Shown: positions 38,171 to 51,943, counted from the stretch's first letter. The stretch: 64,000 nucleotides of DNA from a virus (IMGVR_UViG_3300027708_000016); one strand, 5' to 3'. Made by a program: numbers and translations. The notes: generated by a model from the letters alone, not told the origin.

Positions 38171-38859
38171 AACTTTATACCGTTTTTACAGAGTCACATT
38201 ATGAAATGTTCAAAGACTATTTTATTAAATCTTTTCCCTTTGACACGAATTTAGAATTAGTAATTAAATTCAAACCACAGGTTTGTGCATCATCAGAGTT
38301 CCAAAGTGAAGGGTGGAGAGATACTATGAAATATAAAGTTCAATGTTTCATTGATGCTGCATATGAAACAAAAGATGGCGAATGTTTTATGTTTTCAGAC
38401 CCAGATATACAATTTTTTAAACCATTCCATGATGATGTTGTTAAAGAACTAGGTGATTTTGATGCAGCATTCCAAAATGATTATGGTGGCGGTGTTAATA
38501 CGGGATTTTTTATAATGAGATCCACCCCAAAAACTCGTGCATTTTTAAAAACCGTTCAAGGAAATCTTGAAAAATTTCCAGAAGAACAAGTTTGTTTTAA
38601 TTATATAATCAATAACTTTGACAAATTGCCAAAAGTTGCATATAAATGGAAGATGCTACCAAGAGAATATTGGACTTATGGTGAAAAAGCAATACAGATG
38701 GGTGTTAATGGACAACCTTTTAGCACATGGAGTGGAGAAGGAGATTTTGATATTCCTGAGAACATAATAATTCATCATGCTAATTGGGCAACACCATTCA
38801 AAAACAAAATAAAAATTCTTGATGTCGTAAAGGAAAAATACAATGCTAGAAACATTTAA
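38167..38859 (+). CDS. Nucleotide-diphospho-sugar transferase (GT77-like)
   Basis: FMFSDPDIQFF, VNTGFFIMRS, EQVCFN, IHHANW. Confidence 0.75.
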   Translation: MKLYTVFTESHYEMFKDYFIKSFPFDTNLELVIKFKPQVCASSEFQSEGWRDTMKYKVQCFIDAAYETKDGECFMFSDPDIQFFKPFHDDVVKELGDFDAAFQNDYGGGVNTGFFIMRSTPKTRAFLKTVQGNLEKFPEEQVCFNYIINNFDKLPKVAYKWKMLPREYWTYGEKAIQMGVNGQPFSTWSGEGDFDIPENIIIHHANWATPFKNKIKILDVVKEKYNARNI

Positions 38860-39724
38860 AAAATACTGCATCAGGGCAATATACCCACCTTACCCACCTT
38901 ATCATCAAGGTGATTATTTGGAACAATATTTTTTAAAATTTTATTTAAAAAATATAGAAGAATTTAAAAAGCTAGAAAGACAATTTATTCCAGTTTGTTG
39001 GACTGATCTTTATTTAAAAGCTTTACACATAATAAATGATTTAGCGGTTGATTTGTCAAGATTGGATAAAGGTAAAAAATACTTTACCGTATCTCAACAT
39101 GATGATGCACCAGCAGTGCAGTTATTACCACCAGATACGATTAATTTCTCCGCTGGTGGCAATCAACCCAATACCATACCAATTCCATTAATATGTAGCG
39201 CAATACCAAACCCACCAAACCAAAAAAAAGATATATTTTGTAGTTTTGTTGGTAGCGTAACATCACCATCTACAACCTTTGGCGTATTAGCACATGATAT
39301 AAGAATAAAAATGCTCAAAACATTAAAGGATAACCCCGAATATCTTTTAAAACCAAGAAACTGGTCAGAAGATATTAAAAAAGAAAGACAGGATATGTTT
39401 ATAGATATTACTGCTAGAAGTAAATTTACGCTTTGTCCAAGAGGATATGGTGCAACTAGCTATAGAATGTACGAAGCAATGCAGTTGGGTTCTGTTCCAG
39501 TTTACATATACAACGATTTTCCCTTTATACCTTACGCAGACAAGATTAACTGGAACGAAATAGCAGTTTTGATAAACCAAAATGATATGGATAATTTAGA
39601 TGCTATATTAAAATCAATTTCCGATGATCAATACAATCATATGGTTAATAAAATTAAAGAGATATATCCAAAATACTTTACACTTGAGGCAACATGTAAT
39701 AATGTTTTAGAACATTTAAAATGA
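38843..39724 (+). CDS. Exostosin-family glycosyltransferase (GT47-like)
   Basis: IFCSFVGS, SKFTLCPRGYG, RMYEAMQLGSVPVYI. Confidence 0.82.
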   Translation: MLETFKKYCIRAIYPPYPPYHQGDYLEQYFLKFYLKNIEEFKKLERQFIPVCWTDLYLKALHIINDLAVDLSRLDKGKKYFTVSQHDDAPAVQLLPPDTINFSAGGNQPNTIPIPLICSAIPNPPNQKKDIFCSFVGSVTSPSTTFGVLAHDIRIKMLKTLKDNPEYLLKPRNWSEDIKKERQDMFIDITARSKFTLCPRGYGATSYRMYEAMQLGSVPVYIYNDFPFIPYADKINWNEIAVLINQNDMDNLDAILKSISDDQYNHMVNKIKEIYPKYFTLEATCNNVLEHLK

Positions 39725-40482
39725 AAAAAATATTATTTGTAATTGCAAGATATAATGATAATAGGCAGCAAATATTTGATGAAATTATCTCTCCTAGAAA
39801 CAAAGCTTATTGTGATAAGCACGGATTTAAATATATTGTAATTGGTAATTCCGCACCTTTGTTTTTATATAGGCACAATCCCACATGGTGGAAATTTTCT
39901 ATTGTAAAAGATCTTATTGATCAAGGAAAACTAGAAAATGGTGATATCCTTGCTCATATCGATGCTGATATGTATTTTGTTAATGATTCGGTTTCAATTG
40001 AAACACCAAAATCTTTTTCATATGCAATAGATTCTGGTAATACCCATTGCATGGGTTGGTACAGCATAAAAGTTAATGATTGGTCAAAAAAATTAATCAA
40101 TAATATTCTTTCACAAGAAAGATTTAATAAATTACACAATAATGTCACAATACATGACAGATTTAAAACATATTCTAGTTTTTGGAATGAATTTAGAGAG
40201 CAAGCAAGTTGGTATAGTTTAGCAGGAATTAAAAGACATTCCGATAAACCGTTTTGGGAATATCCCAACAATGGTTTTCATAGTGAAATGAATGAAGATG
40301 TAGTCTATTCAATTGATGAATTAAATGAAAATGTTCAAATATTTGATACGGGATTTAATGTAACCGAATGGCAAGGCGAAAGTGGTTGCCAGTTTAATAT
40401 TAATAAAGTTTCAGTCGATAATGTTGTAATTAGACATTTTGCTGGTGGTCAAGATTGGAATAGTGTTAAAAATTGGTTATAA
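39721..40482 (+). CDS. GMA12/MNN10 (GT34)-like glycosyltransferase
   Basis: KAYCDKHGFKY, PTWWKF, HIDADMYF, VIRHFAG. Confidence 0.65.
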   Translation: MKKILFVIARYNDNRQQIFDEIISPRNKAYCDKHGFKYIVIGNSAPLFLYRHNPTWWKFSIVKDLIDQGKLENGDILAHIDADMYFVNDSVSIETPKSFSYAIDSGNTHCMGWYSIKVNDWSKKLINNILSQERFNKLHNNVTIHDRFKTYSSFWNEFREQASWYSLAGIKRHSDKPFWEYPNNGFHSEMNEDVVYSIDELNENVQIFDTGFNVTEWQGESGCQFNINKVSVDNVVIRHFAGGQDWNSVKNWL

Positions 40483-41175
40483 ACCTTTAGATTTTAAAAA
40501 TGGTACAATATAATTGTTATATGTATTATTTGACATTGGGTAATATTCAAAGCAATGAAATTTAAGCATTGTTACTGATGAATTAAGATTAAATGAAAAA
40601 TTATATTTTTCAGAAATTCTTCTTGACCATTCGATATCTTCAGATTGCCCCCAAGTCAATTCCTCATTAAGAGGAATTTCTTTCATAATTTCTTTTTTAG
40701 CAACCCAATATGAACCATTTATATACATCCACTTAGAACATCTATTTTCAAAATAAGGTAATAAATGCTCATGATTAGGTAAACTGTCTTTTGGTAACTC
40801 TTTTGATGAATGCCACAACCAATCTCTATATCTTTGTCCGTTATTTAATATAACATTACTACATACTTTAAAATCATTACCAAATTTTAAATAACCTTCA
40901 TACCAATTATTATCAAAAACATGATAATCATGCATATAAACAATATTATTATATTTTGCATTTTCTGTTATTATATTTTTTTTTCTAGTAGTCCAATTTT
41001 GTTTTATAGATTCATCAAATTCAATAGTTTTAACAAAATTTTCATCTTTAAAATTAGATTTACCAACAATTATAACTTCAAAATTTGGTATTTTTAATTT
41101 TTTAACCGAATCAATAATTGTAGGAATGTATTGATTTGTATGCTCGGTTGTAGTAATTCCAAAAGTAAAATCCAT
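40477..41175 (-). CDS. GT2-like glycosyltransferase
   Basis: FEVIIVG, KKNIITENAKY, VYMHDY, WGQSEDIEWS. Confidence 0.7.
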   Translation of the reverse strand: MDFTFGITTTEHTNQYIPTIIDSVKKLKIPNFEVIIVGKSNFKDENFVKTIEFDESIKQNWTTRKKNIITENAKYNNIVYMHDYHVFDNNWYEGYLKFGNDFKVCSNVILNNGQRYRDWLWHSSKELPKDSLPNHEHLLPYFENRCSKWMYINGSYWVAKKEIMKEIPLNEELTWGQSEDIEWSRRISEKYNFSFNLNSSVTMLKFHCFEYYPMSNNTYNNYIVPFLKSKGL

Positions 41176-41183
41176 AAATTAAT

Positions 41184-41927
41184 TTATATTAGAATCCAAT
41201 TTTTTAAATCCAAAGGTCTTAAATCATGATCATCTGGTTTAGGATTTGGTAAATAGGGCCATTTATTATCGCTTATTGGAAAATATATTTTATCTGCATT
41301 TGATATATATGCTGCAAACCATGAAAAAGTTGATTTTGATATACAGATTTTTTTTGCATTTTTAAGATAAATAAAATCTGACAAAGAATCTAATGATCTT
41401 ATATTACATCCAAGACTACTAAAGTCTTTTAAATAATCGCTATAAGGCTCATCAGTAACAATAGTGCATCGATTTGGCTTTTCCATTAATATAGCTTTTA
41501 AATACAAATTTTTATCAGTTATACTTCCACCACCAGCAAATACATAATCTGTTAAACGTATATGTATTACTAATTCATCATCTAATGGTTTTTCATATTG
41601 ATTTTCGTTTTCAATTTGCAAATAATTTATTACATTCTGTCTTCCTATTTGTTTGAAACATTCATATTTATGTATCATAAAATCAATACACCAACCATTT
41701 TTTGAATTTTTAACATTTTCAAAGAATTTTTCTCTATTATTATTGTAAATTTCACTTGCTGATTTAATATTATCGTGTACTATACCATCTTTTATTTCAT
41801 AGGTGTTTAAAAACCCTTGTATTTTTTCAGGTATAAACTTCATACCAGTTAATTTATGACAATGCATAGCCGCTACGAAATAATGTAGTCTATTACCCAT
41901 TCTACCATCGGATCTTATTGTTATCAT
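41184..41927 (-). CDS. Alpha-1,2-fucosyltransferase-like (GT11)
   Basis: GRMGNRL, VIHIRLTDY, IVTDEP, SKSTFSWFAAYIS. Confidence 0.8.
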   Translation of the reverse strand: MITIRSDGRMGNRLHYFVAAMHCHKLTGMKFIPEKIQGFLNTYEIKDGIVHDNIKSASEIYNNNREKFFENVKNSKNGWCIDFMIHKYECFKQIGRQNVINYLQIENENQYEKPLDDELVIHIRLTDYVFAGGGSITDKNLYLKAILMEKPNRCTIVTDEPYSDYLKDFSSLGCNIRSLDSLSDFIYLKNAKKICISKSTFSWFAAYISNADKIYFPISDNKWPYLPNPKPDDHDLRPLDLKNWILI

Positions 41928-41972
41928 TTTATTAAATAGTATTAAAATTTATAATGTAACATCAATTATATT

Positions 41973-42671
41973 TTAAACCCATACTCTAAAAGATAATCTT
42001 CTATTTCTAAAATTTAAAAAATCACTTGGTTCAATAAATTCTATATTTCCTGCGATATGATTAAGCATATGTGCATCAAATTGCTCATTGTTTACGGAGT
42101 TTTCGCAAAAATGTTTAATTTGATCATCAGATAAATCTTTTAATTTTAAAAAATTATTATAAGAAGTAATAAAAAAATGGCTACTTGTTTCTGTTCTATT
42201 AAACTGTTTGTCTCCTATATGGAAACATGGTGATACGTTGGCATTTTCATTAAAAAATTTCTCAGCATCTTTAATTCTTACAAAATTATCATGTCTAGAT
42301 CTAATGATATAATCATATTTTTTATTGTTTTCTTTTAGATATTTAGCAATATAAATCAAATTGTATGCAAAAAAAGGAAATCCATCATCACGACATTGAT
42401 GATATTGACTCATATCTTTCTGTTCCAAAAAAATTGGAATATCAACAACATCTTTTATTTGTTCATTTAAAAGGTTGATATCATAATCATAAAGATAATT
42501 TGCGCCTTCGTTTACTTTATGATTGCTATAGGTTCCTTTTTTGGGATACCAAGTTAAAAAAATAACTTCGACATCATGAGTCGGAAAGCAATCCTTTAAT
42601 GCTTGAATATTGGTTTTAATATCATCTAAACACTCTCTAATTGCGCCTACAAAAATCAATCCTAATTTCAT
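41973..42671 (-). CDS. Glycosyltransferase-like protein (WavE-type pattern)
   Basis: LIFVGAIR, VIFLTW, YDYIIRSRHD; late TAAATA box at 42678-42683. Confidence 0.5.
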   Translation of the reverse strand: MKLGLIFVGAIRECLDDIKTNIQALKDCFPTHDVEVIFLTWYPKKGTYSNHKVNEGANYLYDYDINLLNEQIKDVVDIPIFLEQKDMSQYHQCRDDGFPFFAYNLIYIAKYLKENNKKYDYIIRSRHDNFVRIKDAEKFFNENANVSPCFHIGDKQFNRTETSSHFFITSYNNFLKLKDLSDDQIKHFCENSVNNEQFDAHMLNHIAGNIEFIEPSDFLNFRNRRLSFRVWV

Positions 42672-42722
42672 TGATAATATTTATCACATGTTGATTTTTT
42701 TCAAGTATTGATATTTATTGTA

Positions 42723-43472
42723 ATGGAAAGTGATATTAACATATTGATACCAATGGCAGGATTAGGCAGCAGATTTGCACATACCCATCCCAACCAATTA
42801 AAACCACTAATTGATGTTTGTGGGGTGGCAATGATTAAAAGAGTAATTGAAAATTTAAATCAAAGCCAAAACGCAAATTTTATATTTGTGATACCTAATA
42901 TTTTGAAAAATAACAAGGATTTTTTTAATATATTAAATGAATCAAACATAAAATACAAAATATTAGTAACAGAAACCCTTACGGAAGGACCCGCTTGCAC
43001 GGCTTTATTAGCAAAAGATTTTATAAACAACAACACGCCATTAATAATAACTAATTGTGATCAATACATTGCAGATTTCAGTTTAAATGACCTATTAACT
43101 TTTTCAAAAATAAACAATGCACATGGAGTTGTTGGTGTATTCCATTCTAATTCGAATAAAAATAGTTATATTAAACTAGGAAATGATTTAAGAATACAGG
43201 AAATTAGAGAAAAAATTGTCATTAGTAATATTGCAACTAATGGTTTGCATTTTTGGTCTAAAGGTGTTTATTTTGTTGAGTCGGCAGAAAAAATGATTTC
43301 TAAAAATGAAAAATATAATAATGAATATTATATAGCACCTTCTTATAATAATATGATAACAGATAACAAAAATATTTTACCATACTATTATAATTTACAT
43401 TTTCCAATCGGAACGCCCGACGATTTAAACATTTTTGTAAATGAAGTATTTAAAACTATAAAACACAAATGA
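42723..43472 (+). CDS. Sugar-phosphate nucleotidyltransferase (BcbE-like capsule type)
   Basis: ILIPMAGLGSRF, KPLIDV, TEGPACTAL, IITNCDQ, EIREK, NNEYYIAPSYN, IGTPDDL. Confidence 0.88.
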   Translation: MESDINILIPMAGLGSRFAHTHPNQLKPLIDVCGVAMIKRVIENLNQSQNANFIFVIPNILKNNKDFFNILNESNIKYKILVTETLTEGPACTALLAKDFINNNTPLIITNCDQYIADFSLNDLLTFSKINNAHGVVGVFHSNSNKNSYIKLGNDLRIQEIREKIVISNIATNGLHFWSKGVYFVESAEKMISKNEKYNNEYYIAPSYNNMITDNKNILPYYYNLHFPIGTPDDLNIFVNEVFKTIKHK

Positions 43473-44356
43473 AAAAATTAAAAATAAACTTTGTAGACTT
43501 TTGGCCCAACCTATTTAAAGATGATAATTACTTCTATAATCTTTTAAAAACAAAATATGATGTTGAAATAGATGAAGAAAACCCTGATATATTATTTTTT
43601 TCGGTTGATTACAATAACGAAAGAAACAGGGATAGATATAAAAACTGTTTAAAAATCTTTTATACGGGTGAAAACGTTGAACCAAATTGGAATGAATGCG
43701 ATTTAGCTTATACTTTCAGACATTCAAATGATCCAAGGGAATATCGTTTGCCTTTATGGGCATTGCATTTGAATTGGTTTAATAGACCCTATATCGCAGA
43801 AAGAGATCATGCTTATTTACACGATTTAGAGTCATTTTTAGATAAAACCAAAATTAAAAAACTAAACAAAACTGGTTTTTGTTCATTTGTTGCATCACAA
43901 CCCAAAGGAAAAAGAGTTGATTTTGTTCCAAAGCTTTTTAATTACAAACCAGTACATTGCGCAGGACGTTTATATAATAACATAGGTGATGTTTTAGTTT
44001 GTAGAGGTGACCAAATAGAAAAAATAAACTTTTTAAAAAAATTTAAATTTAATATCGCAATGGAAAACACATCTTGTCAAGGTTATTGCACAGAAAAAAT
44101 AATACATTCAATGTTTGGAATGAATATTCCCATATATTGGGGATCAACATCTGTTGAAAGCGATTTTAATCCAGAATCCTTTATTAATTGTCATAATTTT
44201 TCTTCTGATGAAGAAATTATAGAAAAAATTAAAGAATTGGACATGGATGTAGAAAAATATGTTGATATGTTAAAAAAACCTTGGTTTAAAGATGGTAAAA
44301 TTCCAGATTCCGTTCAACCTGATAATGTTATATCTTTAATATCTAATAAAATATAA
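43469..44356 (+). CDS. Alpha-1,3-fucosyltransferase-like (GT10)
   Basis: KIFYTGEN, FCSFVAS, KFKFNIAMENTSCQGYCTEKI, PIYWG. Confidence 0.88.
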   Translation: MKKLKINFVDFWPNLFKDDNYFYNLLKTKYDVEIDEENPDILFFSVDYNNERNRDRYKNCLKIFYTGENVEPNWNECDLAYTFRHSNDPREYRLPLWALHLNWFNRPYIAERDHAYLHDLESFLDKTKIKKLNKTGFCSFVASQPKGKRVDFVPKLFNYKPVHCAGRLYNNIGDVLVCRGDQIEKINFLKKFKFNIAMENTSCQGYCTEKIIHSMFGMNIPIYWGSTSVESDFNPESFINCHNFSSDEEIIEKIKELDMDVEKYVDMLKKPWFKDGKIPDSVQPDNVISLISNKI

Positions 44357-45051
44357 TGAAACCTGATAAAATTTATATAATTCATTATACTAAATTAAAA
44401 GACAGGTATTCAAATTTAATTTCAATTTTAGAAAAATCTAAAATACCTTTTGAATTTATAACACAATATGATAAAGAAGATTTAAAAGAAGATATATTAA
44501 ATAAATTTTATCTACCAAATCCCGAAAAATTTACAAACAAAATTAAACCTTTATGGGATTGTAATATAAATACATTCAGAGTTTTAAGTTCTTCAGAATT
44601 GTCTTGCGCAATTAAACAACTAACTGCTATTAAAAAATTATCTCAAGAGTGTAAAAATTTTGGCATGATCTTAGAAGATGACATTATGTTCGATACGAAT
44701 TTTAATTTACTTTTTAAAAAGTATATCCAAGAAACACCAAACGATTGGGATGCTATTTTTTTAGGTGAAGGTTGCGGTTTTGAATTTCAAAAGTATAAAT
44801 TATCAACAAGTATAAGAAAGAGTGAAAATTCTTATCTAGTCAATAATCCCGCTACAAACTGCGCCGAAGCATATTTATTAAAACCTGATATTGCATCTAA
44901 AATATATGAATCATCATTACCGTTTCAATTAGCTTTTGATTGGGAACTTGCATATCAGTTATATAAATTGAAAGCTAAAACATATTGGTGGTTCCCATCA
45001 ATTGCAAAACAAGGTTCCAGAACAGGACAATATCAATCATCCTTAAGATAA
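44356..45051 (+). CDS. Glycosyltransferase, GT25-like
   Basis: KIYIIHYTKLKDR, SELSCAIKQ, MILEDDI, AEAYLL, AFDWEL. Confidence 0.75.
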   Translation: MKPDKIYIIHYTKLKDRYSNLISILEKSKIPFEFITQYDKEDLKEDILNKFYLPNPEKFTNKIKPLWDCNINTFRVLSSSELSCAIKQLTAIKKLSQECKNFGMILEDDIMFDTNFNLLFKKYIQETPNDWDAIFLGEGCGFEFQKYKLSTSIRKSENSYLVNNPATNCAEAYLLKPDIASKIYESSLPFQLAFDWELAYQLYKLKAKTYWWFPSIAKQGSRTGQYQSSLR

Positions 45052-45052
45052 A

Positions 45053-45778
45053 ATGAGAATAGCAATTTGTTTATCAGGGTTAACTAGATCCATGTGGTAT
45101 TGTTTTCCTGTATTAAAAGAATATATAATAAACGAATTAAATGCAGATGTTTTCTTACATACTTGGGAAATAGATAACGGTGGGCAAACTCCATGCGATG
45201 ATGCAGCAAAATCATGTTCCATCGAAGAAAAAAAAGAATATATTGAAAACAGAATAAAACCAAAAAGATACGTAATAGAAAATTACAACGATTTTTTACA
45301 AAAATACCCAAGCCAAACTCATCCATCAACTGCTCCCATGTATTATTCAATCATGAAGTCTAATGCCCTAAAAAAAGAATATGAATTGGAAAATAATTTT
45401 AAATATGATGTTGTTTTTAGGATAAGAATGGACGTAATGTTTGATACTACGATTGATAAAGAAGAATTAAAAAACGTCATAGAGCAAAAAAAACTATATA
45501 TAGGTTACCATAGTGTAGATAAAATTGAATCTCAACCAAAAATAAGTGATTTTTTTGCTTTTTCAACTTCTGAAAACATGGATTATTATTCGGATGCATT
45601 CAAATTATGGGAAAATAATAGATATTTAAATGGAGAAGATGTATTGAATACACATATATTAAATGCAAATTTAAAATATAAATGGACTAACACGAAAATG
45701 AAATTAACCTACCGTTGGCAAACGTGTAGAGCATATTTCGCCTATGCATATAGACAAAATTTTGCATATCAGGATTGA
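45053..45778 (+). CDS. Glycosyltransferase-like protein (WavE-type pattern)
   Basis: MRIAICLSG, DVFLHTW, MYYSI, KYDVVFRIRMD, SDFFAF. Confidence 0.55.
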   Translation: MRIAICLSGLTRSMWYCFPVLKEYIINELNADVFLHTWEIDNGGQTPCDDAAKSCSIEEKKEYIENRIKPKRYVIENYNDFLQKYPSQTHPSTAPMYYSIMKSNALKKEYELENNFKYDVVFRIRMDVMFDTTIDKEELKNVIEQKKLYIGYHSVDKIESQPKISDFFAFSTSENMDYYSDAFKLWENNRYLNGEDVLNTHILNANLKYKWTNTKMKLTYRWQTCRAYFAYAYRQNFAYQD

Positions 45779-45810
45779 TTTTTTAAAATTTTATTATATA
45801 ATTCTTTTAC

Positions 45811-46773
45811 ATGAAAAAAATTGCTTTTTATTTGCCGCATATTGATATACAAGGAACAGGGGTGTCAGTTTTAGATTATTGTAAATTTAATCAAGAAATT
45901 CTTGGTAATAAATCATTTATGATTCATGATTTAAATCATCCAGCCAATCATGAACTAGCCATTGAAAAATTTAAAAATAATAATATAGAAATAATATCTT
46001 TGAAGGGTAACGAAGATACGAATGAATTGGAAAGAAAATTGGACGAACTCAAAGTTGATGCAGTTTACATTCAAAAAACAGGAAGAAAGGATGACGGCAG
46101 ATTTGCTAAAAATAAACCTTCATTCATACATGTAATAGGAACCCAAAATGATCCTCACGGGACAGTCTATGCTTATGCTAGTGAATGGTTAAATCAGCAT
46201 TGCACAGGGGGAACTTATCCAGTTGTTCCTTATATGGTTCATCTACCTGAACACCATGACAATTTTAGAGATAAACTAAAACTACCCGAAAATGCAATAG
46301 TTTTTGGTAGAACAGGTGGAATATATTCTTGGAACATGCCTTGGGTTAGTCAGACTATAGAAAAAGCACTCTCGTTAAGAGATGATATATACTTTTTATT
46401 CGTACAGACCCCTCAATTTATAAAACACGAAAGAGTTATATATACAAGTCCATTTTCTGACCTTTATATAAAAAGAAAATTCATTAACACATGTGATGCA
46501 ATGATTCACGCAAGAGCAGAAGGCGAATCATTTGGTATGGCTTGTGCAGAATTTTCTTATAGTAATAAACCAGTTATAACATATAGTAATTCACCAGAAA
46601 GAAATCATATTTACGTTTTAAAGGATAAAGGTTTATATTATGATTCTCCTCAAACACTGTTAGATATACTTTTAAAATTTGAAATTCAAGATAAAGATTG
46701 GAATGCCTATCGTGAATTTACGCCAGAATCAGTAATTAACCAATTCAAAAAGGTTTTTATTGATAAAATATGA
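45811..46773 (+). CDS. GT-B glycosyltransferase (GT4-like)
   Basis: GTGVSVLDY, VFGRTGG, DAMIHARAEGESFGMACAEFS. Promoter TTGATT-N16-TATAAT at 45775-45802. Confidence 0.8.
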   Translation: MKKIAFYLPHIDIQGTGVSVLDYCKFNQEILGNKSFMIHDLNHPANHELAIEKFKNNNIEIISLKGNEDTNELERKLDELKVDAVYIQKTGRKDDGRFAKNKPSFIHVIGTQNDPHGTVYAYASEWLNQHCTGGTYPVVPYMVHLPEHHDNFRDKLKLPENAIVFGRTGGIYSWNMPWVSQTIEKALSLRDDIYFLFVQTPQFIKHERVIYTSPFSDLYIKRKFINTCDAMIHARAEGESFGMACAEFSYSNKPVITYSNSPERNHIYVLKDKGLYYDSPQTLLDILLKFEIQDKDWNAYREFTPESVINQFKKVFIDKI

Positions 46774-47090
46774 AAATTCTAAATATAGAAGATTTTATAG
46801 GTGGATGGTTCATTGGAGATTTTGAACCATCGGTTTTAAAAACCAAAGATTTTGAAGTTTGTTTTAAAAAACATGTTAAGGATGAAATTTGGCCCAAACA
46901 TTATCATCGAATAGCAACCGAAATTAATTATTTGATTAAAGGTGAAATGATAATACAGGGTAAACTACTAAAAACGGGTAATATTTTTATCTTAGAACCA
47001 AATGAATGGGCTAATCCAGTATTTTTACAAGATTGTGAACTTATAGTAGTAAAAACACCTTCTATAAAAGGTGATAAATATGAAAATTAA
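46770..47090 (+). CDS. Cupin-fold protein
   Basis: GGWFIGDFEP, cupin metal motif HYHRIATEINYLIKG, FILEPNE. Confidence 0.8.
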   Translation: MKILNIEDFIGGWFIGDFEPSVLKTKDFEVCFKKHVKDEIWPKHYHRIATEINYLIKGEMIIQGKLLKTGNIFILEPNEWANPVFLQDCELIVVKTPSIKGDKYEN

Positions 47091-47118
47091 TTGACTTTTT
47101 TACTATTTATTATATAAT
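47091..47118 (+). promoter_or_regulatory. Sigma70-like promoter TTGACT-N16-TATAAT of the RuBisCO-like gene
   Basis: Near-consensus boxes ending 9 nt before the ATG at 47128. Confidence 0.7.
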
Positions 47119-47127
47119 ATTATTATT

Positions 47128-48342
47128 ATGCTTAAATACGACATTTTTAAACCAGAATACAAATTAGACTCTTCCTTCTTTGCTAATTATTTTATTGTAA
47201 CATACTTAATTGGTTCAAAAACCGATTTAAAAGATGCCGCATGGAATCTAGCTATCGGGCAATCAATTGGAAATCCAAGTAAGCGTTCCGAATTTGAGAG
47301 CCAAGATTTGATTGACAATCATTGTGCTATTATTTTACATGATGAAAAATCCTTAGAGAATCTTAAAGAAGGTATTGTTAAGATTGCTTTTGCTGAAGCA
47401 AATATTAACTTTAAAACGGACGGAGTATCCCAATTGCTAGTCCAAATAATGGGAGGTCAATGTGACATTGATATTTTTGAAAAGTGTGTTATTAAAGATA
47501 TAAAATTAACTCCAAATATGGAGAACTGTTTGCAGGGACCTAAAATTGGTCTAAAAGAAATGAGAGAATATTGTGGTGTATCACAGGAAAAGCCTTTATT
47601 TGGTGGGATTGTGAAACCAAAAGTTGGTCTTTCGCCACAAAAAAATCTTGATTTGGTAAAAAAACTCATTGATGGCGGCTGTAACTTCATAAAAGAAGAT
47701 GAAATTCTTTCAGATCCCGATCATTGTAGAATTGAAGATCGTGTTCCCCCTGTAATGGATTATATTAAAAGCACTAATGCAAAAGTTTATTACGCAGTTT
47801 CAATCCATTCCGATCCTGCACACATTTTAAATCGTGTTAAGCAAGTTTATGAATTGGGTGGAAATGCTGTTCATGTAAATTTCCATTGTGGATTAGGTGT
47901 TTATAAGTCTATTAGAGAACTTGATTTACCAATTCTAGTTCACTTCCAGAAAAGCGGTGATAAAATTTTAAATTGTTATGATCATAAATTTGCAATTGAT
48001 CAAGATGTAATCTTTAAACTTGTTGGGCAAAGTGGCTGTTCGACGCTTCATGCTGGTATGATCGGTGGATACATGGATAATGAAACACAGGCGGTAAAGA
48101 AGACTATTTCCATGTTGAATGATATAAATTGCGTCCCAGCTTTAAGTTGTGGAATGCACCCAGGTTTAATTGATTATATTTTAGATGTGGTTGGACATAG
48201 CAACTGGATGGCAAATGTCGGCGGTGCATTAACATCACATCCAAGTGGTACTTTGGCAGGTACAAAGGCTATGAGACAAGCAATCGATAAGAATTACGGG
48301 GATGAATATCATCAAGCCATTGAAAAATGGGGTAAGAAATGA
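47128..48342 (+). CDS. RuBisCO-like protein (form IV, non-carboxylating)
   Basis: GGIVKPKVGL (K175/K177), FIKEDE (K201/D203/E204), TLHAG, PALSCG, NVGG...HPSG; 404 aa. Confidence 0.92.
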   Translation: MLKYDIFKPEYKLDSSFFANYFIVTYLIGSKTDLKDAAWNLAIGQSIGNPSKRSEFESQDLIDNHCAIILHDEKSLENLKEGIVKIAFAEANINFKTDGVSQLLVQIMGGQCDIDIFEKCVIKDIKLTPNMENCLQGPKIGLKEMREYCGVSQEKPLFGGIVKPKVGLSPQKNLDLVKKLIDGGCNFIKEDEILSDPDHCRIEDRVPPVMDYIKSTNAKVYYAVSIHSDPAHILNRVKQVYELGGNAVHVNFHCGLGVYKSIRELDLPILVHFQKSGDKILNCYDHKFAIDQDVIFKLVGQSGCSTLHAGMIGGYMDNETQAVKKTISMLNDINCVPALSCGMHPGLIDYILDVVGHSNWMANVGGALTSHPSGTLAGTKAMRQAIDKNYGDEYHQAIEKWGKK

Positions 48343-48755
48343 TAGTAATTTCTCATAGAGGGAATACTACTGGCCCAGTTAAACAAACCGAAAATCGACC
48401 CCAAACAATTCAACCTTTATTGGATAAAAATATCCACGTGGAAATTGATGTTTGGTTAATAGGTGACAGTTTTTTCTTGGGTCATGATGACCCTTTATAT
48501 AAAACCGATATAAAATTTTTATTACAAAAAAATCTCTGGTGTCATGCAAAAAACTTAAAATCATTAGAAGAAATGTTAAAACACGATATTAATTGTTTTT
48601 GGCATGAAAACGATAAACACACTTTAACATCTAATGGTTATATTTGGACTTATCTTAATCAAAAAACATGTGATAAATCCATAATAGTTGATTTATCAAA
48701 AAACTGGAAAGAAAAAAATTATAATTGCTATGCCATTTGTGTTGATTACTTGTAA
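48339..48755 (+). CDS. PLC/GDPD-like phosphoesterase
   Basis: ISHRGN, EN, VEIDVW, LGHD, WCHAKN; overlaps the RuBisCO-like stop (ATGA). Confidence 0.72.
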   Translation: MIVISHRGNTTGPVKQTENRPQTIQPLLDKNIHVEIDVWLIGDSFFLGHDDPLYKTDIKFLLQKNLWCHAKNLKSLEEMLKHDINCFWHENDKHTLTSNGYIWTYLNQKTCDKSIIVDLSKNWKEKNYNCYAICVDYL

Positions 48756-48776: not shown

Positions 48777-50585
48777 ATGAAAAAAGTTCAATTTAATTCT
48801 GTAAAAATACAAAATTTTCTTTCCGTTGGTAAAGATCCATTAACAATTGATTTTCAAAACGGCATTAATCTCATCACTGGAGAGAATAAAGACAAGGGTG
48901 GCAAGAATGGAATAGGGAAAAGCTCCATTCTTGAAGCCATTTACTGGTGTTTATTTGGTAATACCATTCGTGATATCAAAAACGATAAGATAATTCACAA
49001 TCTTAGCAAGAAAGATTGCAAGGTTTCATTAAACTTTGAGGTTGTTACCGAAAAACACGTAACTCCATACACTATAGAAAGATCTTTAGAACCAAGTAAG
49101 GTTACTATTACTGCACATAATCAACAAAGAGACATTGATATGACTCTTTCTACCATGCCAGAGACCAATTCCTTCATTAAAGAATTACTTGGGGCAACCG
49201 AAGAAGTGTTCCAGAATGCTGTTATCATGTCTGCGAACAATACAGTGCCGTTTATGGCTCAAAAGAAGACCGATAAAAGAAAATTCATCGAAGGAATTCT
49301 TAATCTTAACATCTTTAGTGACATGTTGCTAAAGGCAAGAGGAGATTATAATGATTTTAAAAAACAAAATGACTCGTTGAGTAGTAATTTTATTACGCTT
49401 CAAAGAAATTTAAGCACTTTTGAAGATCAGAAAGCAAATGCAGAAACAAAAAAACAAGAAAAAATAGATGCATTTAATTCTCGCATTAGAGATAATGAAA
49501 AAATCATAGAACAATTAAATAACACAACCCTTCCTAGTTTAAATGAAGTTAATGACGGCATACAAAAGCTAGAAGAAAAACGCACTGCACTAAAAAGTTG
49601 CATTAAAGCTTTTAATATAACAAGGTCAGATCTTATAAAAAAAAGTTCAGATCTTTCCGCTGAGATAAGACAATTAGAAAAAGAAAAACAAAAGATAATC
49701 GACAAAGGTGGAACATGTCCAACATGTAATAGAGACTATTGTGTTGAAGACCTTGAAGCTGTTAAGCAAAGATTAAAAGATATTGCTACCAATATATCAA
49801 ATCTTGCTACCGAATCATTCACCATTAATAGTGAAAAGATTGATTGGGACGATAAGATCGAAGAAGCAGAAGATGGAGTTGAAAAAATCAATGGTAAAAT
49901 CAGAATTTTGGATCAATCAAAGTCAGATATCAAAATTAACAATCAAAAAATAACTAATTGTGAAAGTAATATTAAAGATTGTTTGAAATGGATCGAAGAT
50001 ACTAAGATAGATGATCCATCAATTGATTTAAATGTTCAAAATACCAAAAAAGAAATTGAAAACACTCAAATAGAACTAACAAAAGTTAAAAAAGAAATGG
50101 CGATAGTAGAAGCTGCCAAATTTATTGTCTCCGAGGAGGGTGTTAAAACGTATATTGTTAAGAAAATGCTTACGTTACTTAACAAGAAGCTTAATTACTA
50201 CCTCAAAGAACTTGATACTCCATGTAAATGTGAGTTCAATGATATGTTTGAAGAAACTATTATCAACGAAACTGGTAAAGAATGTTCATATTTCAATTTT
50301 AGTGGGGGAGAAAGAAAAAGAATTGATGTTGCTGTGTTGTTTATGTTTCAAGATCTCTTGAGAAGCCAAACTGGAACCTCATATTCGTTAAACATCTATG
50401 ATGAAATGATTGATTCTGCCCTTGATCAGCAAGGAACTGATAAAATTATTGGTTTACTTAAAGAAAAGGTTACAAAATACGATGAGTCTGTTTACATAGT
50501 CAGTCATAAAGCATCAGATATGGCAAGAATTGATAATGTTTTATTGTTAGAAAAAGAAAATGGTGTTACAAAAATAGTTAGTTGA
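48777..50585 (+). CDS. gp46: Recombination ATPase gp46 (Rad50/SbcC-like)
   Basis: GKNGIGKS, zinc hook CPTC, FSGGERKR, IYDEMIDSALD, VSH. Promoter at 48742-48769. Confidence 0.95.
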   Translation: MKKVQFNSVKIQNFLSVGKDPLTIDFQNGINLITGENKDKGGKNGIGKSSILEAIYWCLFGNTIRDIKNDKIIHNLSKKDCKVSLNFEVVTEKHVTPYTIERSLEPSKVTITAHNQQRDIDMTLSTMPETNSFIKELLGATEEVFQNAVIMSANNTVPFMAQKKTDKRKFIEGILNLNIFSDMLLKARGDYNDFKKQNDSLSSNFITLQRNLSTFEDQKANAETKKQEKIDAFNSRIRDNEKIIEQLNNTTLPSLNEVNDGIQKLEEKRTALKSCIKAFNITRSDLIKKSSDLSAEIRQLEKEKQKIIDKGGTCPTCNRDYCVEDLEAVKQRLKDIATNISNLATESFTINSEKIDWDDKIEEAEDGVEKINGKIRILDQSKSDIKINNQKITNCESNIKDCLKWIEDTKIDDPSIDLNVQNTKKEIENTQIELTKVKKEMAIVEAAKFIVSEEGVKTYIVKKMLTLLNKKLNYYLKELDTPCKCEFNDMFEETIINETGKECSYFNFSGGERKRIDVAVLFMFQDLLRSQTGTSYSLNIYDEMIDSALDQQGTDKIIGLLKEKVTKYDESVYIVSHKASDMARIDNVLLLEKENGVTKIVS

Positions 50586-50614: not shown

Positions 50615-51943
50615 ATGGCATTAAAGTTAAAGCAACAACCTAAACCGCAGATTGCAACACAAGAATTGGCAAATGATAAGATAACATATCAATACAATCC
50701 AGTTTTTACAGGCATTCCAAATGCTCCTCATGGAATGCCGCAAGGGATGCCAGTTTATTCCCATGTGCAAATGAATCCTATCAAGTTTCCGTCACCCGCG
50801 CCGCTTGAAATGCCAGAAAGTAACTTACCGAGAGCATTAAACTATTATGCGGACTATGGTGGTTGTGGTTTTTGGAGAATGATTTGGCCCGAATTCATGT
50901 TGAACCAATACCAAAAGGCTTGTATCTCTGGATTAACCTGTATGGTAATGGATATTAGATTTTATCAGGGATTAAAAGCTGTTAGAATGCAAAGACAAGC
51001 TACCCCAATGCAAAGAGACTTCATCAAGGAGCTTAAAAAAGCAAGTGCTCAGATGAATTTTAAATTAATTTATGAAGTTGATGATATCGTGTTCAAGGAT
51101 GACATTCCAGATTATAACCGATGCAAAGATGCATTCTGTGATCAAAATATTATAGACAGTATTTTGGATATCATGAGTATGATGGATGAAATTACCGTTA
51201 CATGTCCATACATGAAGCAATATTACCAAGAAAAGACGGGTAATAAGAGAATTACAGTTATTCCCAACTATCCACCAAAATTTTGGCTTGATAGATTTTA
51301 TGATAAACAAAAAATTGAAAGACTTTACGATCAAAATAAAAAAAGACCTCGTATTCTGTATTCTGGATCTGGTACTCATGTTGATATTCTTAATAGAACA
51401 GGACTTAAGGATGACTTTAAGCATGTTACTGATGCAATTATCAAGGCTCGTAAGAAATTTAAGTTTGTGTGGAAGGGATGTTTTCCTTTAGCACTCAAAC
51501 CATACATCGATAATGGCGATATGGAGTTTATTGATTGGTCACCTTTGCCAGATTACCCCCAAGGTCTTGTTGATACCAATTGTAATGCTGTTTTTGCACC
51601 ATTGATTGATAATGTGTTCAATAAATCAAAAAGTAATATTAAAATGGTTGAGGCAGGAGGATTAGGACTACCTGGCACATATCAAGACATGATTACCTAT
51701 GAAGATTCAGAGTTAAAATTTAAAACTGGTGATGATTTAATCCAACAGTTAGAGTATATCACTTCCGATTTTGATCGATACATGGATCTTTCTGGTAAAG
51801 CAAGAGCATTTACCGATAAACTTTGGTTAGATGATCATATAAATGAATACGAAGCTCTTTATTCAACTGCATGGGGGTCTCCAGAAAGAAAGAAGCTTGC
51901 TCCTAAACTCATCGAACTCAACCCAGATCAAGATAGTGCTTGA
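50615..51943 (+). CDS. GT-B glycosyltransferase in the replication module
   Basis: DYGGCGFWRM, YEVDD, ITVTCPYM, VIPNY, APLIDNVFNKSKSNIKMVE. Promoter at 50582-50609. Confidence 0.75.
   Translation: MALKLKQQPKPQIATQELANDKITYQYNPVFTGIPNAPHGMPQGMPVYSHVQMNPIKFPSPAPLEMPESNLPRALNYYADYGGCGFWRMIWPEFMLNQYQKACISGLTCMVMDIRFYQGLKAVRMQRQATPMQRDFIKELKKASAQMNFKLIYEVDDIVFKDDIPDYNRCKDAFCDQNIIDSILDIMSMMDEITVTCPYMKQYYQEKTGNKRITVIPNYPPKFWLDRFYDKQKIERLYDQNKKRPRILYSGSGTHVDILNRTGLKDDFKHVTDAIIKARKKFKFVWKGCFPLALKPYIDNGDMEFIDWSPLPDYPQGLVDTNCNAVFAPLIDNVFNKSKSNIKMVEAGGLGLPGTYQDMITYEDSELKFKTGDDLIQQLEYITSDFDRYMDLSGKARAFTDKLWLDDHINEYEALYSTAWGSPERKKLAPKLIELNPDQDSA

What the first reader, a model, noticed from the sequence alone, without database searches (positions are those of the whole stretch)
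42723..48755. Phage module of a non-carboxylating RuBisCO-like enzyme, cupin, phosphoesterase and sugar nucleotidyltransferase: candidate new nucleotide-sugar pathway
Seen: a 404-aa RuBisCO-fold protein keeps K175/K177 (KPK) and the carbamylated-Lys/Mg site (KEDE = K201, D203, E204). By eye alignment it has lost the carboxylation residues: E60 reads AIGQS, N123 reads IMGGQ, H294/R295 reads HFQK, and loop-6 K334 reads GGYM. It is flanked by a cupin (HYH..TE) and a translationally coupled PLC/GDPD-like protein. A BcbE-type NDP-sugar pyrophosphorylase lies in the same plus-strand run with four glycosyltransferases in between. Known: form IV RLPs act on sugar-phosphate-like substrates as enolases/tautomerases (methionine salvage) or as decarboxylases/transcarboxylases in catabolism of branched sugars (apiose, hamamelose). 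Inference: here the RLP works biosynthetically. It would rearrange a host ketose phosphate; phosphate removal or transfer, nucleotidylation and cupin epimerisation would then give an unusual, possibly branched-chain, NDP-sugar for the neighbouring transferases. I know of no characterised RLP in glycan biosynthesis or in a phage glycosylation locus.
Basis: partly seen in the sequence, partly recalled or inferred. Interest (0 to 1): 0.93.

Follow-up and report, generated by a model that had tools for sequence, protein, structure and literature searches.

The report
Phage RuBisCO-like enzyme in sugar-activation cassette
A freshwater T4-like phage carries a RuBisCO relative that cannot fix CO2, and this gene travels with a sugar-activating enzyme, a small cupin and a miniature phosphodiesterase in surface-glycan gene clusters of phages, SAR11, CPR bacteria and DPANN archaea, which points to an untested glycan-building role for the RuBisCO fold.

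Summary
Window 47128-48342 encodes a 404-aa RuBisCO-superfamily protein. It keeps K175, K177, K201, D203, E204 and H327. It has E60G, N123G, H294Q, R295K, H298D and K334Y, and this signature is invariant in 97 relatives.

In a tree the family is one 100/100 clade outside forms I, II and III, the apiose-pathway decarboxylase OiaX and its relatives, and a MtnW-type enolase. It matches the "Form IV-like" phage clade of Jaffe et al. 2019, whose function is unknown.

Linkage is strong. Of 81 dereplicated loci with full flanks:
- 76 have the same nucleotidyltransferase within 2.5 kb
- 64 have the 138-aa mini-GDPD
- 53 have the 106-aa cupin
- 46 have all four

New here are the fusions.
- In RLP-less cyanophage cassettes the nucleotidyltransferase is fused to RpiB, RibB or HAD domains. 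This suggests pentose-phosphate entry.
- The mini-GDPD is fused to glycosyltransferases, methyltransferases, a sulfotransferase and, once, this RLP.

Most likely the cassette makes a nucleotide-activated, pentose-phosphate-derived unit for the neighbouring transferases. Substrate, product and step order are inferred only.

Earlier follow-ups of this scan found the same cassette on other DNA. No paper in the library searched assigns it a function.

The parts
42723..43472 (+). Sugar-phosphate nucleotidyltransferase (249 aa from the ATG; an upstream TTG at 42708 gives 254 aa). It belongs to the 4evw-like family, the near-constant partner of this RLP clade. Here it lies 3.66 kb upstream of the RLP instead of adjacent to it.
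   Evidence: Pfam PF00483 at 2e-9. phrog_3980 at 5e-53. Family profile against PDB 4evw at 2e-35. Homolog within 2.5 kb of the RLP in 76 of 81 loci.
43469..44356 (+). GT10-type fucosyltransferase-like glycosyltransferase.
   Evidence: Pfam FucT_N at 1.3e-21 and Glyco_transf_10 at 9.6e-19.
44356..45051 (+). GT25 glycosyltransferase.
   Evidence: Pfam PF01755 at 9.5e-12.
45053..45778 (+). DUF7796-like GT-A fold glycosyltransferase. It is the most frequent transferase neighbour of the cassette and a candidate user of its product.
   Evidence: Weak Pfam DUF7796 hit at 4.7e-6. Cluster present in 40 of 100 loci. AlphaFold pLDDT 86; Foldseek best matches are GT6 enzymes, 4ayl at 2e-8. Relatives are fused to the mini-GDPD.
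45811..46773 (+). Probable GT-B glycosyltransferase (weak call).
   Evidence: Pfam Glycos_transf_1 at 1.9e-4, below the cut-off. Found in only 5 of 100 loci.
46770..47090 (+). 106-aa single-domain cupin with a metal-site motif (H35, H44-x-H46, E51).
   Evidence: phrog_24762 at 2e-35. Alignment A2 invariants. PDB profile hits to cupins at 7e-6 to 3e-4. Within 2.5 kb of the RLP in 53 of 81 loci.
47091..47118 (+). Sigma-70-like promoter candidate, TTGACT-16 nt-TATAAT, just upstream of the RLP start. Read by eye and not tested.
   Evidence: Sequence read.
47128..48342 (+). Non-carboxylating RuBisCO-like protein, 404 aa, of the 'Form IV-like' clade.
   Evidence: Pfam PF00016 at 1.6e-34. Below every NCBIfam equivalog cut-off. 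Clade supported 100/100. Active-site map.
48339..48755 (+). 138-aa miniature GDPD-like protein, translationally coupled to the RLP by an ATGA overlap.
   Evidence: Within 2.5 kb of the RLP in 64 of 81 loci. At least 1385 clusters at 50% identity score E<=1e-30.

Best explanation
The RLP, the cupin, the mini-GDPD and the nucleotidyltransferase are the four parts of a mobile, widely shared cassette. The cassette supplies a nucleotide-activated sugar-like unit to the glycosyltransferases around it.

Proposed mechanism (inferred throughout):

1. A host ketose or pentose phosphate enters, most plausibly at the ribulose-5-phosphate / ribose-5-phosphate level.
2. The RLP uses its retained carbamyl-lysine/Mg2+ site (K201, D203, E204, with K175 and K177) to enolise it. 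It isomerises or rearranges the substrate without adding CO2, because the carboxylation and cleavage residues are replaced.
3. The metal-binding cupin performs a second isomerisation or epimerisation.
4. The 4evw-like nucleotidyltransferase joins the phosphate to an NMP.
5. The GT-A (DUF7796-like) transferase and the other transferases of the island place the unit on a glycan.
6. The mini-GDPD performs a phosphodiester step coupled to transfer or tailoring.

In this phage the cassette lies in a ~15 kb glycan island between gp47 and gp46, so it would act during infection.

Shown: gene identities, the active-site signature, clade placement, linkage and the fusions. Inferred: substrate, product, order of steps and the target glycan.
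For: - Linkage. NTP-transferase lies within 400 bp of the RLP in 67 of 81 dereplicated loci and within 2.5 kb in 76. Mini-GDPD is present in 64, cupin in 53 and all four in 46. RLP identity to the window protein falls as low as 34%.
- Usual layout. The typical order is NTP - cupin - RLP - mini-GDPD with overlapping stops and starts.
- Surroundings. Frequent neighbours are glycan genes: SDR epimerase/dehydratase, a GT-A, FkbM methyltransferases, DegT aminotransferase and UDP-GlcNAc 2-epimerase.
- Active site. Enolisation residues are kept and carboxylation residues lost, identically in 97 members.
- Fusions of the nucleotidyltransferase. It is fused to RpiB in phage Bellamy and in L235, to DHBP synthase in S-SKS1, and to HAD_2 in S-CAM9, B23 and Pelagibacter. 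Bellamy's NTP-RpiB gene is followed by the same cupin (51% identity) and a DUF7796-like GT.
- Fusions of the mini-GDPD. One fusion to an RLP of this family (50% identity), and fusions to GT-A, GT61, WavE, methyltransferases and a sulfotransferase.
- Phage context. gp47, gp46, gp43 and a tail sheath stabiliser are present.
Against: - There are no biochemical data for any member.
- In this window the nucleotidyltransferase is 3.66 kb away, separated by four GT genes.
- 35% of loci lack the cupin and 21% lack the mini-GDPD, so the core may be only RLP + NTP-transferase.
- RpiB and RibB products carry a terminal rather than anomeric phosphate. This fits a CDP-polyol-type donor better than a classical NDP-sugar.
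- The RLP's distal phosphate site is altered (R295K, H298D), so a bisphosphate substrate such as RuBP is unlikely and the true substrate is unknown.
- Linkage shows a shared function, not which function.
- The reference set for the tree lacked IV-Photo and DeepYkr RLPs.
Confidence: 0.6

Rival explanations
1. Same cassette, different type of product. The nucleotidyltransferase activates a terminal phosphate, as TarI or IspD do. This would give a CDP/NDP-linked ketose, polyol or dihydroxybutanone phosphate that is transferred as a phosphodiester-linked head group (teichoic-acid-like) rather than as a glycosyl residue. The mini-GDPD would handle that phosphodiester.
For: - The fusion partners RpiB and RibB make products with terminal phosphates.
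- There are weak IspD/MobA-like Pfam hits on this NTase family.
- GDPD enzymes act on polyol phosphodiesters, and the catalytic motifs are kept.
- An RXYLT1_C/GT47-like transferase lies in the island at 38843-39724. From my own knowledge, RXYLT1 acts on a ribitol-phosphate acceptor.
Against: - The best PDB relatives of the NTase are sugar-1-phosphate nucleotidyltransferases.
- The commonest transferase partner has a Leloir GT-A (GT6-like) fold.
- No LicD, TagF or Stealth-type phosphotransferase appeared among the frequent neighbours that were annotated.
Confidence: 0.25
2. The RLP, cupin and a phosphoesterase form a salvage or detoxification route analogous to methionine salvage (MtnW enolase, MtnX phosphatase, MtnD cupin dioxygenase) or to the Rhodospirillum rubrum RLP + cupin route to DXP. 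On this view they only happen to lie in glycan islands.
For: - The enzyme-family trio resembles MtnW/MtnX/MtnD and the R. rubrum RLP plus cupin methylsulfurylase (own knowledge of these pathways).
- MtnW structures are among the best PDB hits, 2oej at 1.5e-24.
- A class II aldolase (the MtnB family) occurs in related cyanophage cassettes.
Against: - The protein scores far below the MtnW equivalog cut-offs: 119.7 against 409 and 98.7 against 513 bits.
- It sits in a separate clade from the MtnW-type reference.
- K177 is kept and position 98 differs, so the signature is unlike MtnW.
- A nucleotidyltransferase, which has no role in salvage, is adjacent in 94% of loci.
- No MtnA, MtnB or MtnK genes are among the frequent neighbours.
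- The third protein is GDPD-like, not a HAD phosphatase.
Confidence: 0.07
3. The protein is a working carboxylase that boosts host carbon fixation (a conventional auxiliary metabolic gene), or it is a decayed, non-catalytic remnant.
For: It has a RuBisCO_large domain, and sources annotate relatives as 'ribulose-bisphosphate carboxylase large chain'.
Against: - K334, H294, E60 and N123 are all replaced.
- It scores below all the RuBisCO equivalog cut-offs.
- Carriers include heterotrophs such as SAR11, CPR bacteria and DPANN archaea.
- Decay is excluded by strong conservation: mean column identity is 67% and about 100 columns are invariant in 23 sequences.
Confidence: 0.02

Closest known systems
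'Form IV-like' RuBisCO-related proteins of phages and Beckwithbacteria (Jaffe, Castelle, Dupont & Banfield 2019, Mol Biol Evol, PMC6389311)
   Same: Both are myovirus-borne, highly divergent from all other RLPs and keep only part of the catalytic residues. Both are found in many environments and also in CPR bacteria (compared).
   Different: That paper left the function open and, in the passages read, does not report the gene neighbourhood. Here the clade is tied to a nucleotidyltransferase/cupin/mini-GDPD cassette in glycan loci and extended to SAR11, DPANN archaea, Verrucomicrobia and Azospirillum. Identity with their sequences could not be checked directly.
MtnW / MtnX / MtnD of the Bacillus methionine salvage pathway (RLP enolase, HAD phosphatase, cupin dioxygenase). 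The pathway description is from my own knowledge; PDB 2oej and 2zvi were hit.
   Same: An RLP that only enolises, working beside a cupin and a phosphoesterase. K175, K201, D203 and E204 are retained.
   Different: The clade is separate and the protein scores below the equivalog cut-offs. K177 is kept. The partner is GDPD-like rather than HAD. The cassette is always next to a nucleotidyltransferase and lies in glycan loci, not sulfur-salvage loci.
OiaX and related RLPs of D-apiose catabolism (NCBIfam NF042437; the pathway is from Carter et al. 2018, as cited in PMC6389311)
   Same: An RLP acting on a sugar-acid or sugar phosphate outside carbon fixation. Both belong to the same superfamily.
   Different: The score is 117 bits against a 700-bit cut-off. 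The clade is separate. OiaX keeps H294, R295 and K334, which this family lacks. OiaX sits in a catabolic operon, whereas this family sits in glycan-biosynthesis surroundings.
RLP-less cassettes of cultured cyanophages (Bellamy, S-SM2, S-CAM9, B23, S-PRM1, S-SKS1)
   Same: They carry the same nucleotidyltransferase family (26-42% identity), the same mini-GDPD (32-39%), the same cupin (51-52% in Bellamy and SynMITS9220M01) and a DUF7796-like GT, all in glycan islands of T4-like phages.
   Different: In place of the RLP they carry RpiB, RibB or HAD domains fused to the nucleotidyltransferase, or a class II aldolase. No record in the GenBank phage collection encodes the RLP.
CDP-ribitol and CDP-methylerythritol synthesis (TarI/TarJ, IspD). 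Own knowledge.
   Same: A pentulose-phosphate-derived unit is activated by an NTP-transferase-fold enzyme for use in surface polymers or later steps. The NTase gives weak IspD-like hits.
   Different: The cassette has no reductase or DXR. The NTase is closer to sugar-1-phosphate enzymes. An RLP and a cupin take the place of the reductive step.

Membership tests
RuBisCO large-subunit superfamily (Pfam PF00016) | Significant match to the catalytic TIM-barrel domain above the gathering score | tested here: met
   E 1.6e-34, 120 bits against a 30.1 cut-off, residues 154-390. 99 PDB RuBisCO/RLP chains match at E<=1e-3.
Bona fide RuBisCO (forms I, II, III) | Carboxylation and cleavage residues E60, N123, H294, R295, H298 and K334 all present | tested here: not met
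   They read G, G, Q, K, D and Y, invariant in 97 family members.
Bona fide RuBisCO (forms I, II, III) | Score above the NCBIfam equivalog/subfamily cut-offs (TIGR03326, NF003252, NF010002) | tested here: not met
   141.6 against 497, 137.3 against 438 and 86.7 against 489 bits. Outside these clades in the tree.
DK-MTP-1-P enolase MtnW (methionine salvage) | Score above the NF007095 / TIGR03332 cut-offs and grouping with MtnW-type sequences | tested here: not met
   119.7 against 409 and 98.7 against 513 bits. Separate from the one MtnW-type reference, L173, though that branch is long.
DK-MTP-1-P enolase MtnW (methionine salvage) | Genomic association with mtnA, mtnB, mtnK, mtnX and mtnD | tested here: not met
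   None of these are among the frequent neighbours in 100 loci. The whole genome of the window is not held.
3-oxo-isoapionate-4-phosphate decarboxylase OiaX | Score above the NF042437 cut-off (700 bits) | tested here: not met
   117.1 bits. A separate, fully supported clade.
'Form IV-like' phage RLP clade (Jaffe et al. 2019) | Encoded on myovirus-type phage genomes, with relatives in CPR bacteria | tested here: met
   T4-like core genes lie in the window. 289 IMG/VR contigs carry a relative. Saccharibacteria and other CPR MAGs also carry one.
'Form IV-like' phage RLP clade (Jaffe et al. 2019) | Divergent clade lying outside all other RLP and RuBisCO forms | tested here: met
   Supported 100/100 on a branch of at least 1.17 changes per site, apart from all references used. 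IV-Photo and DeepYkr references were not available.
'Form IV-like' phage RLP clade (Jaffe et al. 2019) | Direct sequence identity with the published clade members | not testable with these tools
   Their sequences are not held. The assignment rests on matching descriptions.
Glycerophosphodiester phosphodiesterase (GDPD) family | Catalytic HRG, E-x-D and HD motifs | tested here: met
   H6, R7, G8, E35, D37, H49 and D50 are invariant in 26 sequences. The profile hits 3i10 at 4e-6 and 7e0v at 1e-4.
Glycerophosphodiester phosphodiesterase (GDPD) family | Full (beta/alpha)8 barrel of about 220-280 aa and a match to the Pfam GDPD model | tested here: not met
   The protein is 138 aa. There is no Pfam hit at E<=0.01. 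Foldseek TM-score normalised to the GDPD targets is only 0.38-0.41. Family members are mostly 140-160 aa.
Cupin superfamily | Metal-binding motif G-x5-H-x-H-x3,4-E-x6-G in a small beta-barrel | tested here: met
   H44, H46, E51 and G58 are invariant. The profile hits cupins 2h0v at 7e-6, 7zvm at 1e-4 and 3d82 at 3e-4. No fold was predicted.
Sugar-phosphate nucleotidyltransferase (Pfam PF00483) | Match above the gathering score and the N-terminal G-x-G-x-R ... K signature | tested here: met
   37.8 bits against a 21.2 cut-off. G18, G20, R22 and K32 are invariant in 31 sequences. 4evw matches at 2e-35. Substrate and nucleotide specificity were not tested.

The most novel reading that the evidence does not exclude
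This RLP clade performs the first anabolic, glycan-directed reaction known for the RuBisCO superfamily. It would convert a central pentose phosphate into an unusual, possibly rearranged, deoxy-keto or branched unit. That unit would be nucleotide-activated and built into cell-surface or virion glycans of some of the most abundant organisms in water (SAR11, their relatives and their phages). Phages would then carry the cassette to rewrite or mimic host surface glycans.
Probability: 0.45. Interest if true: 0.9.

Novelty: new variant of a known kind. Interest (0 to 1): 0.75.

Why it matters
RuBisCO-like proteins are a classic case of an ancient fold recruited to new chemistry. So far the known roles are sulfur salvage and sugar-acid catabolism.

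This clade is very large. The search returned 2581 hits, and relatives lie on 289 IMG/VR viral contigs and in 37 of the species genomes searched, including SAR11, CPR bacteria and DPANN archaea. It has had no function since the GOS survey and the 2019 description.

A fixed partnership with a nucleotidyltransferase in glycan loci turns 'function unknown' into a bench-testable hypothesis with a short list of candidate substrates. At least one carrier is cultured.

If the hypothesis holds, it adds a new route to an activated sugar. It would also add a new determinant of the surface glycans that decide phage-host recognition in the ocean and in lakes.

Tried and rejected
- The whole genome of the window is not held, so no genome-wide search for partner pathways was possible.
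- tblastn of the RLP against 50,697 GenBank phage records found nothing. DNA-level search of the island found only two trivial matches.
- Literature searches combining RLP with IV-GOS, nucleotidyltransferase, cupin, cytidylyltransferase, 'form IV-like' plus phage, polysaccharide, or Pelagibacter found no paper assigning a function. Only Yooseph 2007 and Jaffe 2019 were relevant. I suspect this family is the 'IV-GOS' clade but could not verify it.
- The search for related loci with the mini-GDPD alignment failed because it has no conserved stretch to search with.
- The profile of the DUF7796-like family hit nothing in the PDB by sequence. Only the fold search resolved it.
- The small 'phosphoheptose isomerase' of S-SM2 was tested as a possible cupin and rejected: it shows no similarity and is HAD_PNKP-like.
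- Searching with the HAD-NTP fusion returned only more HAD-NTP fusions, saturating at 8000 hits, so it gave no census of other fusion partners.
- The Protein Atlas only confirmed RuBisCO-family clusters, split between viruses and bacteria.
- I did not fold the RLP. The fold is not in doubt, and coordinates cannot be inspected with these tools.
- A working-carboxylase reading and a decayed-gene reading were both rejected on residues and conservation.

Full report
**What is in the window**

The window is part of a T4-like myophage.
- gp47 lies at 32737-33795 and gp46/SbcC at 48777-50585.
- A family-B DNA polymerase lies at 51975-54551, and tail genes lie further upstream.
- The polymerase is only about 30% identical to that of any cultured phage.
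- The same RLP occurs letter for letter on 11 metagenome contigs; the collection's longest contig for it is 218 kb.
- No whole genome is held for the window.

Between gp47 and gp46 lies a ~15 kb run of glycan genes. These include GT25, FkbM methyltransferase, GT47/RXYLT1-like, GT11-like and GT10 genes. The finding covers the last 6 kb of that run.

**Checking the observation**

*The RLP.* ORF 47128-48342 gives a 404-aa protein with a RuBisCO_large domain, E 1.6e-34.

I fetched reference sequences from genomes and labelled them with NCBIfam models. They comprise form I, form II, form III, OiaX, OiaX-like RLPs and one MtnW-type enolase. I aligned them with 97 family members.

| Position | State in this family |
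|---|---|
| K175, K177, K201, D203, E204 | kept |
| H327, S379, G381, G403 | kept |
| E60, N123 | G, G |
| T65, W66 | N, P |
| H294, R295, H298 | Q, K, D |
| K334 | Y |
| G380, G404 | C, A |

This pattern is essentially invariant in both subclades of the family.

From established RuBisCO enzymology:
- The carbamyl-lysine/Mg2+ enolisation apparatus is intact.
- The residues that position and add CO2, and those that cleave the six-carbon intermediate, are gone.
- The distal phosphate site (R295, H298) is no longer strongly cationic.

Carboxylation can therefore be set aside, and a monophosphate substrate is more likely than RuBP.

*The neighbours.*
- The 106-aa protein is a cupin with an invariant H-x-H...E site.
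- The 138-aa protein is a miniature GDPD-like protein.
  - HRG, E-x-D and HD motifs are invariant, and a profile hits GDPD structures.
  - The AlphaFold model has pLDDT 97, and its best Foldseek matches are GDPDs covering only part of their barrel.
  - Its start overlaps the RLP stop as ATGA.
- The upstream 249-aa protein is a sugar-phosphate nucleotidyltransferase. Its family profile matches PDB 4evw at 2e-35.
- Of the four genes in between, GT10 and GT25 are clear. The 241-aa DUF7796-like protein folds as a GT-A similar to GT6 enzymes. The 320-aa protein is only weakly GT-B-like.

**Is the family known?**

The protein scores far below the curated cut-offs for form III, form I and form II RuBisCO, for MtnW and for OiaX.

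In a maximum-likelihood tree of 74 sequences, the 38 family members form one clade with 100/100 support on a long branch. The clade lies outside all references.
- Caveat: only one MtnW-type sequence was available, and it is itself on a long branch.
- Caveat: no IV-Photo or DeepYkr references were available.

Jaffe et al. 2019 (PMC6389311) described about 80 'Form IV-like' RLPs on Myoviridae-type phage contigs plus Beckwithbacteria. They placed them outside all other RLPs and left the function open. The present protein fits that description. Phage RLPs as such are therefore not new.

The GOS paper (PMC1821046) had already seen unplaced RuBisCO homologues in ocean data.

**Distribution**

| Search | Result |
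|---|---|
| Protein collection | 2581 relatives at E<=1e-3; the top 120 are 54-76% identical |
| IMG/VR | 289 contigs encode a relative, including two giant-virus MAG records |
| One-genome-per-species collection | 37 loci |

The 37 genome loci include a complete Pelagibacter chromosome, several SAR11 single-cell genomes, Saccharibacteria, Verrucomicrobia, Woese-, Pace-, Nano- and Micrarchaeota, and the cultured Azospirillum oleiclasticum RWY-5-1-1.

**The co-occurrence test**

I called ORFs on all loci and searched them with the four window proteins. After dereplication at 95% RLP identity, 81 loci have at least 2.5 kb on both sides.

| Partner | Within 400 bp | Within 2.5 kb |
|---|---|---|
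| NTP-transferase | 67 | 76 |
| Mini-GDPD | 25 | 64 |
| Cupin | 44 | 53 |
| All four | not counted | 46 |

- The usual order is NTP - cupin - RLP - mini-GDPD with overlapping genes.
- The window is unusual only in having four GT genes inserted between the NTP-transferase and the cupin.
- A deeper subclade (DPANN archaea and some SAR11) usually lacks the cupin. In SAR11 it has a second NTP-transferase paralogue on the other side of the RLP.
- In three viral loci the NTP-transferase and cupin are fused.

All-against-all clustering of neighbours in 100 loci gave these frequent companions:
- SDR epimerase/dehydratase in 46 loci
- the DUF7796-like GT-A in 40
- FkbM methyltransferases in 23
- DegT aminotransferase in 13
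- UDP-GlcNAc 2-epimerase in 9

In Azospirillum the four genes are followed by CysD, CysN/CysC and a GT41-like transferase. The setting is consistently glycan synthesis and tailoring.

**New leads on mechanism: fusions and substitutions**

Cultured cyanophages have the nucleotidyltransferase, mini-GDPD and sometimes the cupin, but no RLP. Their annotated regions and Pfam scans show the following.

| Phage or genome | Arrangement |
|---|---|
| S-CAM9, B23, S-PRM1, Pelagibacter | HAD_2 (beta-phosphoglucomutase-like) fused to the NTase. In the phages S-CAM9 and B23 the mini-GDPD follows. |
| Bellamy | NTase fused to an RpiB/LacAB sugar-phosphate isomerase, then the same cupin (51% identity), then a DUF7796-like protein |
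| Bellamy, S-SM2 | A class II aldolase-family gene and a small HAD next to the mini-GDPD |
| S-SKS1 | NTase fused to 3,4-dihydroxy-2-butanone-4-phosphate synthase (RibB) |

Among the 80 best of 473 IMG/VR cupin loci:
- 69 carry the RLP.
- 9 carry HAD_2-NTase + cupin + NTase-HAD + mini-GDPD.
- 1 carries NTase-RpiB.
- 1 carries only an NTase-HAD fusion next to the cupin.
- 5 of the RLP loci also carry a free-standing RibB.

From established knowledge, RpiB and RibB both act on ribulose 5-phosphate through enediol intermediates. Class II aldolase-family enzymes act on ketose phosphates. An RLP does the same kind of chemistry with a carbamate/Mg2+ site.

I infer that the RLP occupies the 'ketose-phosphate isomerase/rearrangement' slot of a modular pathway that begins at the pentose-phosphate level. 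This is an inference from domain fusions, not a demonstration.

The mini-GDPD family is large. At least 1385 clusters at 50% identity score E<=1e-30, and most members are 140-160 aa. Its longer members are fusions:
- to DUF7796-type GT-A, GT61 and WavE-like transferases
- to methyltransferases
- to a sulfotransferase
- in one case, to an RLP of this family (50% identity over the N-domain)

The mini-GDPD is therefore tied both to the RLP and to the transfer and tailoring enzymes. This suggests a phosphodiester step coupled to transfer rather than plain precursor dephosphorylation. What that step is remains open.

**Best reading and rivals**

*Best reading (confidence about 0.6).* A mobile cassette makes a nucleotide-activated, pentose-phosphate-derived unit for glycan decoration, and the RLP acts as a non-carboxylating enolising isomerase.

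*Main alternative (about 0.25).* This is a variant of the same idea. The nucleotide is attached to a terminal phosphate, as in CDP-ribitol or CDP-methylerythritol, and the unit is transferred as a phosphodiester.
- For: the RpiB and RibB fusions and the GDPD-like partner fit this.
- Against: the GT6-like GT-A partner and the NTase's closest structural relatives fit a classical NDP-sugar.

*Salvage route (about 0.07).* A route analogous to MtnW/MtnX/MtnD, or to the Rhodospirillum rubrum RLP plus cupin, is unlikely given the tree, the cut-offs and the constant nucleotidyltransferase.

*Carboxylase or decayed gene (about 0.02).* Both are excluded by the residues and by the very strong conservation.

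**Novelty and standing**

Earlier follow-ups in this scan found the same cassette on other genomes and reached the same general reading.

- the invariant active-site map across 97 members
- the quantified linkage
- the GT-A identity of the commonest partner
- the RpiB, RibB, HAD and class II aldolase substitutions in cultured cyanophages
- the mini-GDPD fusion spectrum

I found no paper in the searched library that assigns a function or reports the neighbourhood. The gene itself is a new member of a published clade. The pathway context is a new variant of what RLPs are known to do. The claim is directly testable in vitro and in a cultured Azospirillum.

Noticed in passing
window 33792-48755: About 15 kb of glycan genes splits the normally adjacent gp47 (32737-33795) and gp46 (48777-50585). 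The run includes GT25 x2, FkbM methyltransferase, Nucleotid_trans, GT47/RXYLT1_C-like, GT11-like and GT10 genes. Three of its genes, at 40477-42671, lie on the minus strand.
   Followed up: partly
window 50615-51943: A 442-aa protein between gp46 and the DNA polymerase has no Pfam hit but matches phrog_7162 'glycosyltransferase' at 9.5e-20. It lies outside the island, inside the replication gene run.
   Followed up: no
window 47091-47118: A TTGACT-16 nt-TATAAT motif lies 10 nt upstream of the RLP start codon. The RLP and mini-GDPD may therefore have their own early-type promoter within the plus-strand run.
   Followed up: no
L189:7001-8428 (Synechococcus phage S-SKS1, HQ633071.1): A 475-aa protein annotated as DHBP synthase is in fact a fusion. 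The 4evw-like nucleotidyltransferase forms the N-terminal part and RibB forms residues 259-447. It sits in a glycan island, not a riboflavin context.
   Followed up: partly
L188:4489-5646 (Synechococcus phage Bellamy gp206) and L235:4383-5561: The nucleotidyltransferase is fused to a LacAB/RpiB sugar-phosphate isomerase. In Bellamy it is annotated 'phosphatase' and is followed by the cassette cupin and a DUF7796-like GT.
   Followed up: partly
P0297, P0336, P0308, P0300, P0253, P0351, P0329, P0301, P0269 (metagenome proteins): The mini-GDPD domain occurs fused to GT-A (DUF7796), GT61 and WavE-like transferases, to methyltransferases, to a sulfotransferase and to an RLP N-domain.
   Followed up: partly
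L118:3891-11480 (Azospirillum oleiclasticum RWY-5-1-1): A cultured bacterium carries mini-GDPD - RLP - cupin - NTase followed by CysD, CysN/CysC (PAPS synthesis) and a TPR-GT41-like transferase, all on one strand. The same genome also has a form I RuBisCO and an OiaX-like RLP.
   Followed up: partly
L099, L100, L101, L108, L112 (SAR11 single-cell genomes): In the deeper RLP subclade, two paralogous nucleotidyltransferases flank the RLP (mini-GDPD - NTase - RLP - NTase), in four of the five followed by a DUF7796-like gene on the opposite strand. There is no cupin.
   Followed up: no
L089:2722-4089 and relatives P0124-P0243: HAD_2-nucleotidyltransferase fusions of about 456 aa are extremely abundant in marine data. 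The search saturated at 8000 hits with E<=1e-10.
   Followed up: no
L203:6321-8454: An RLP-less cassette variant has a second nucleotidyltransferase fused to a PNKP-like HAD phosphatase between the cupin and the mini-GDPD. A sulfotransferase follows.
   Followed up: no
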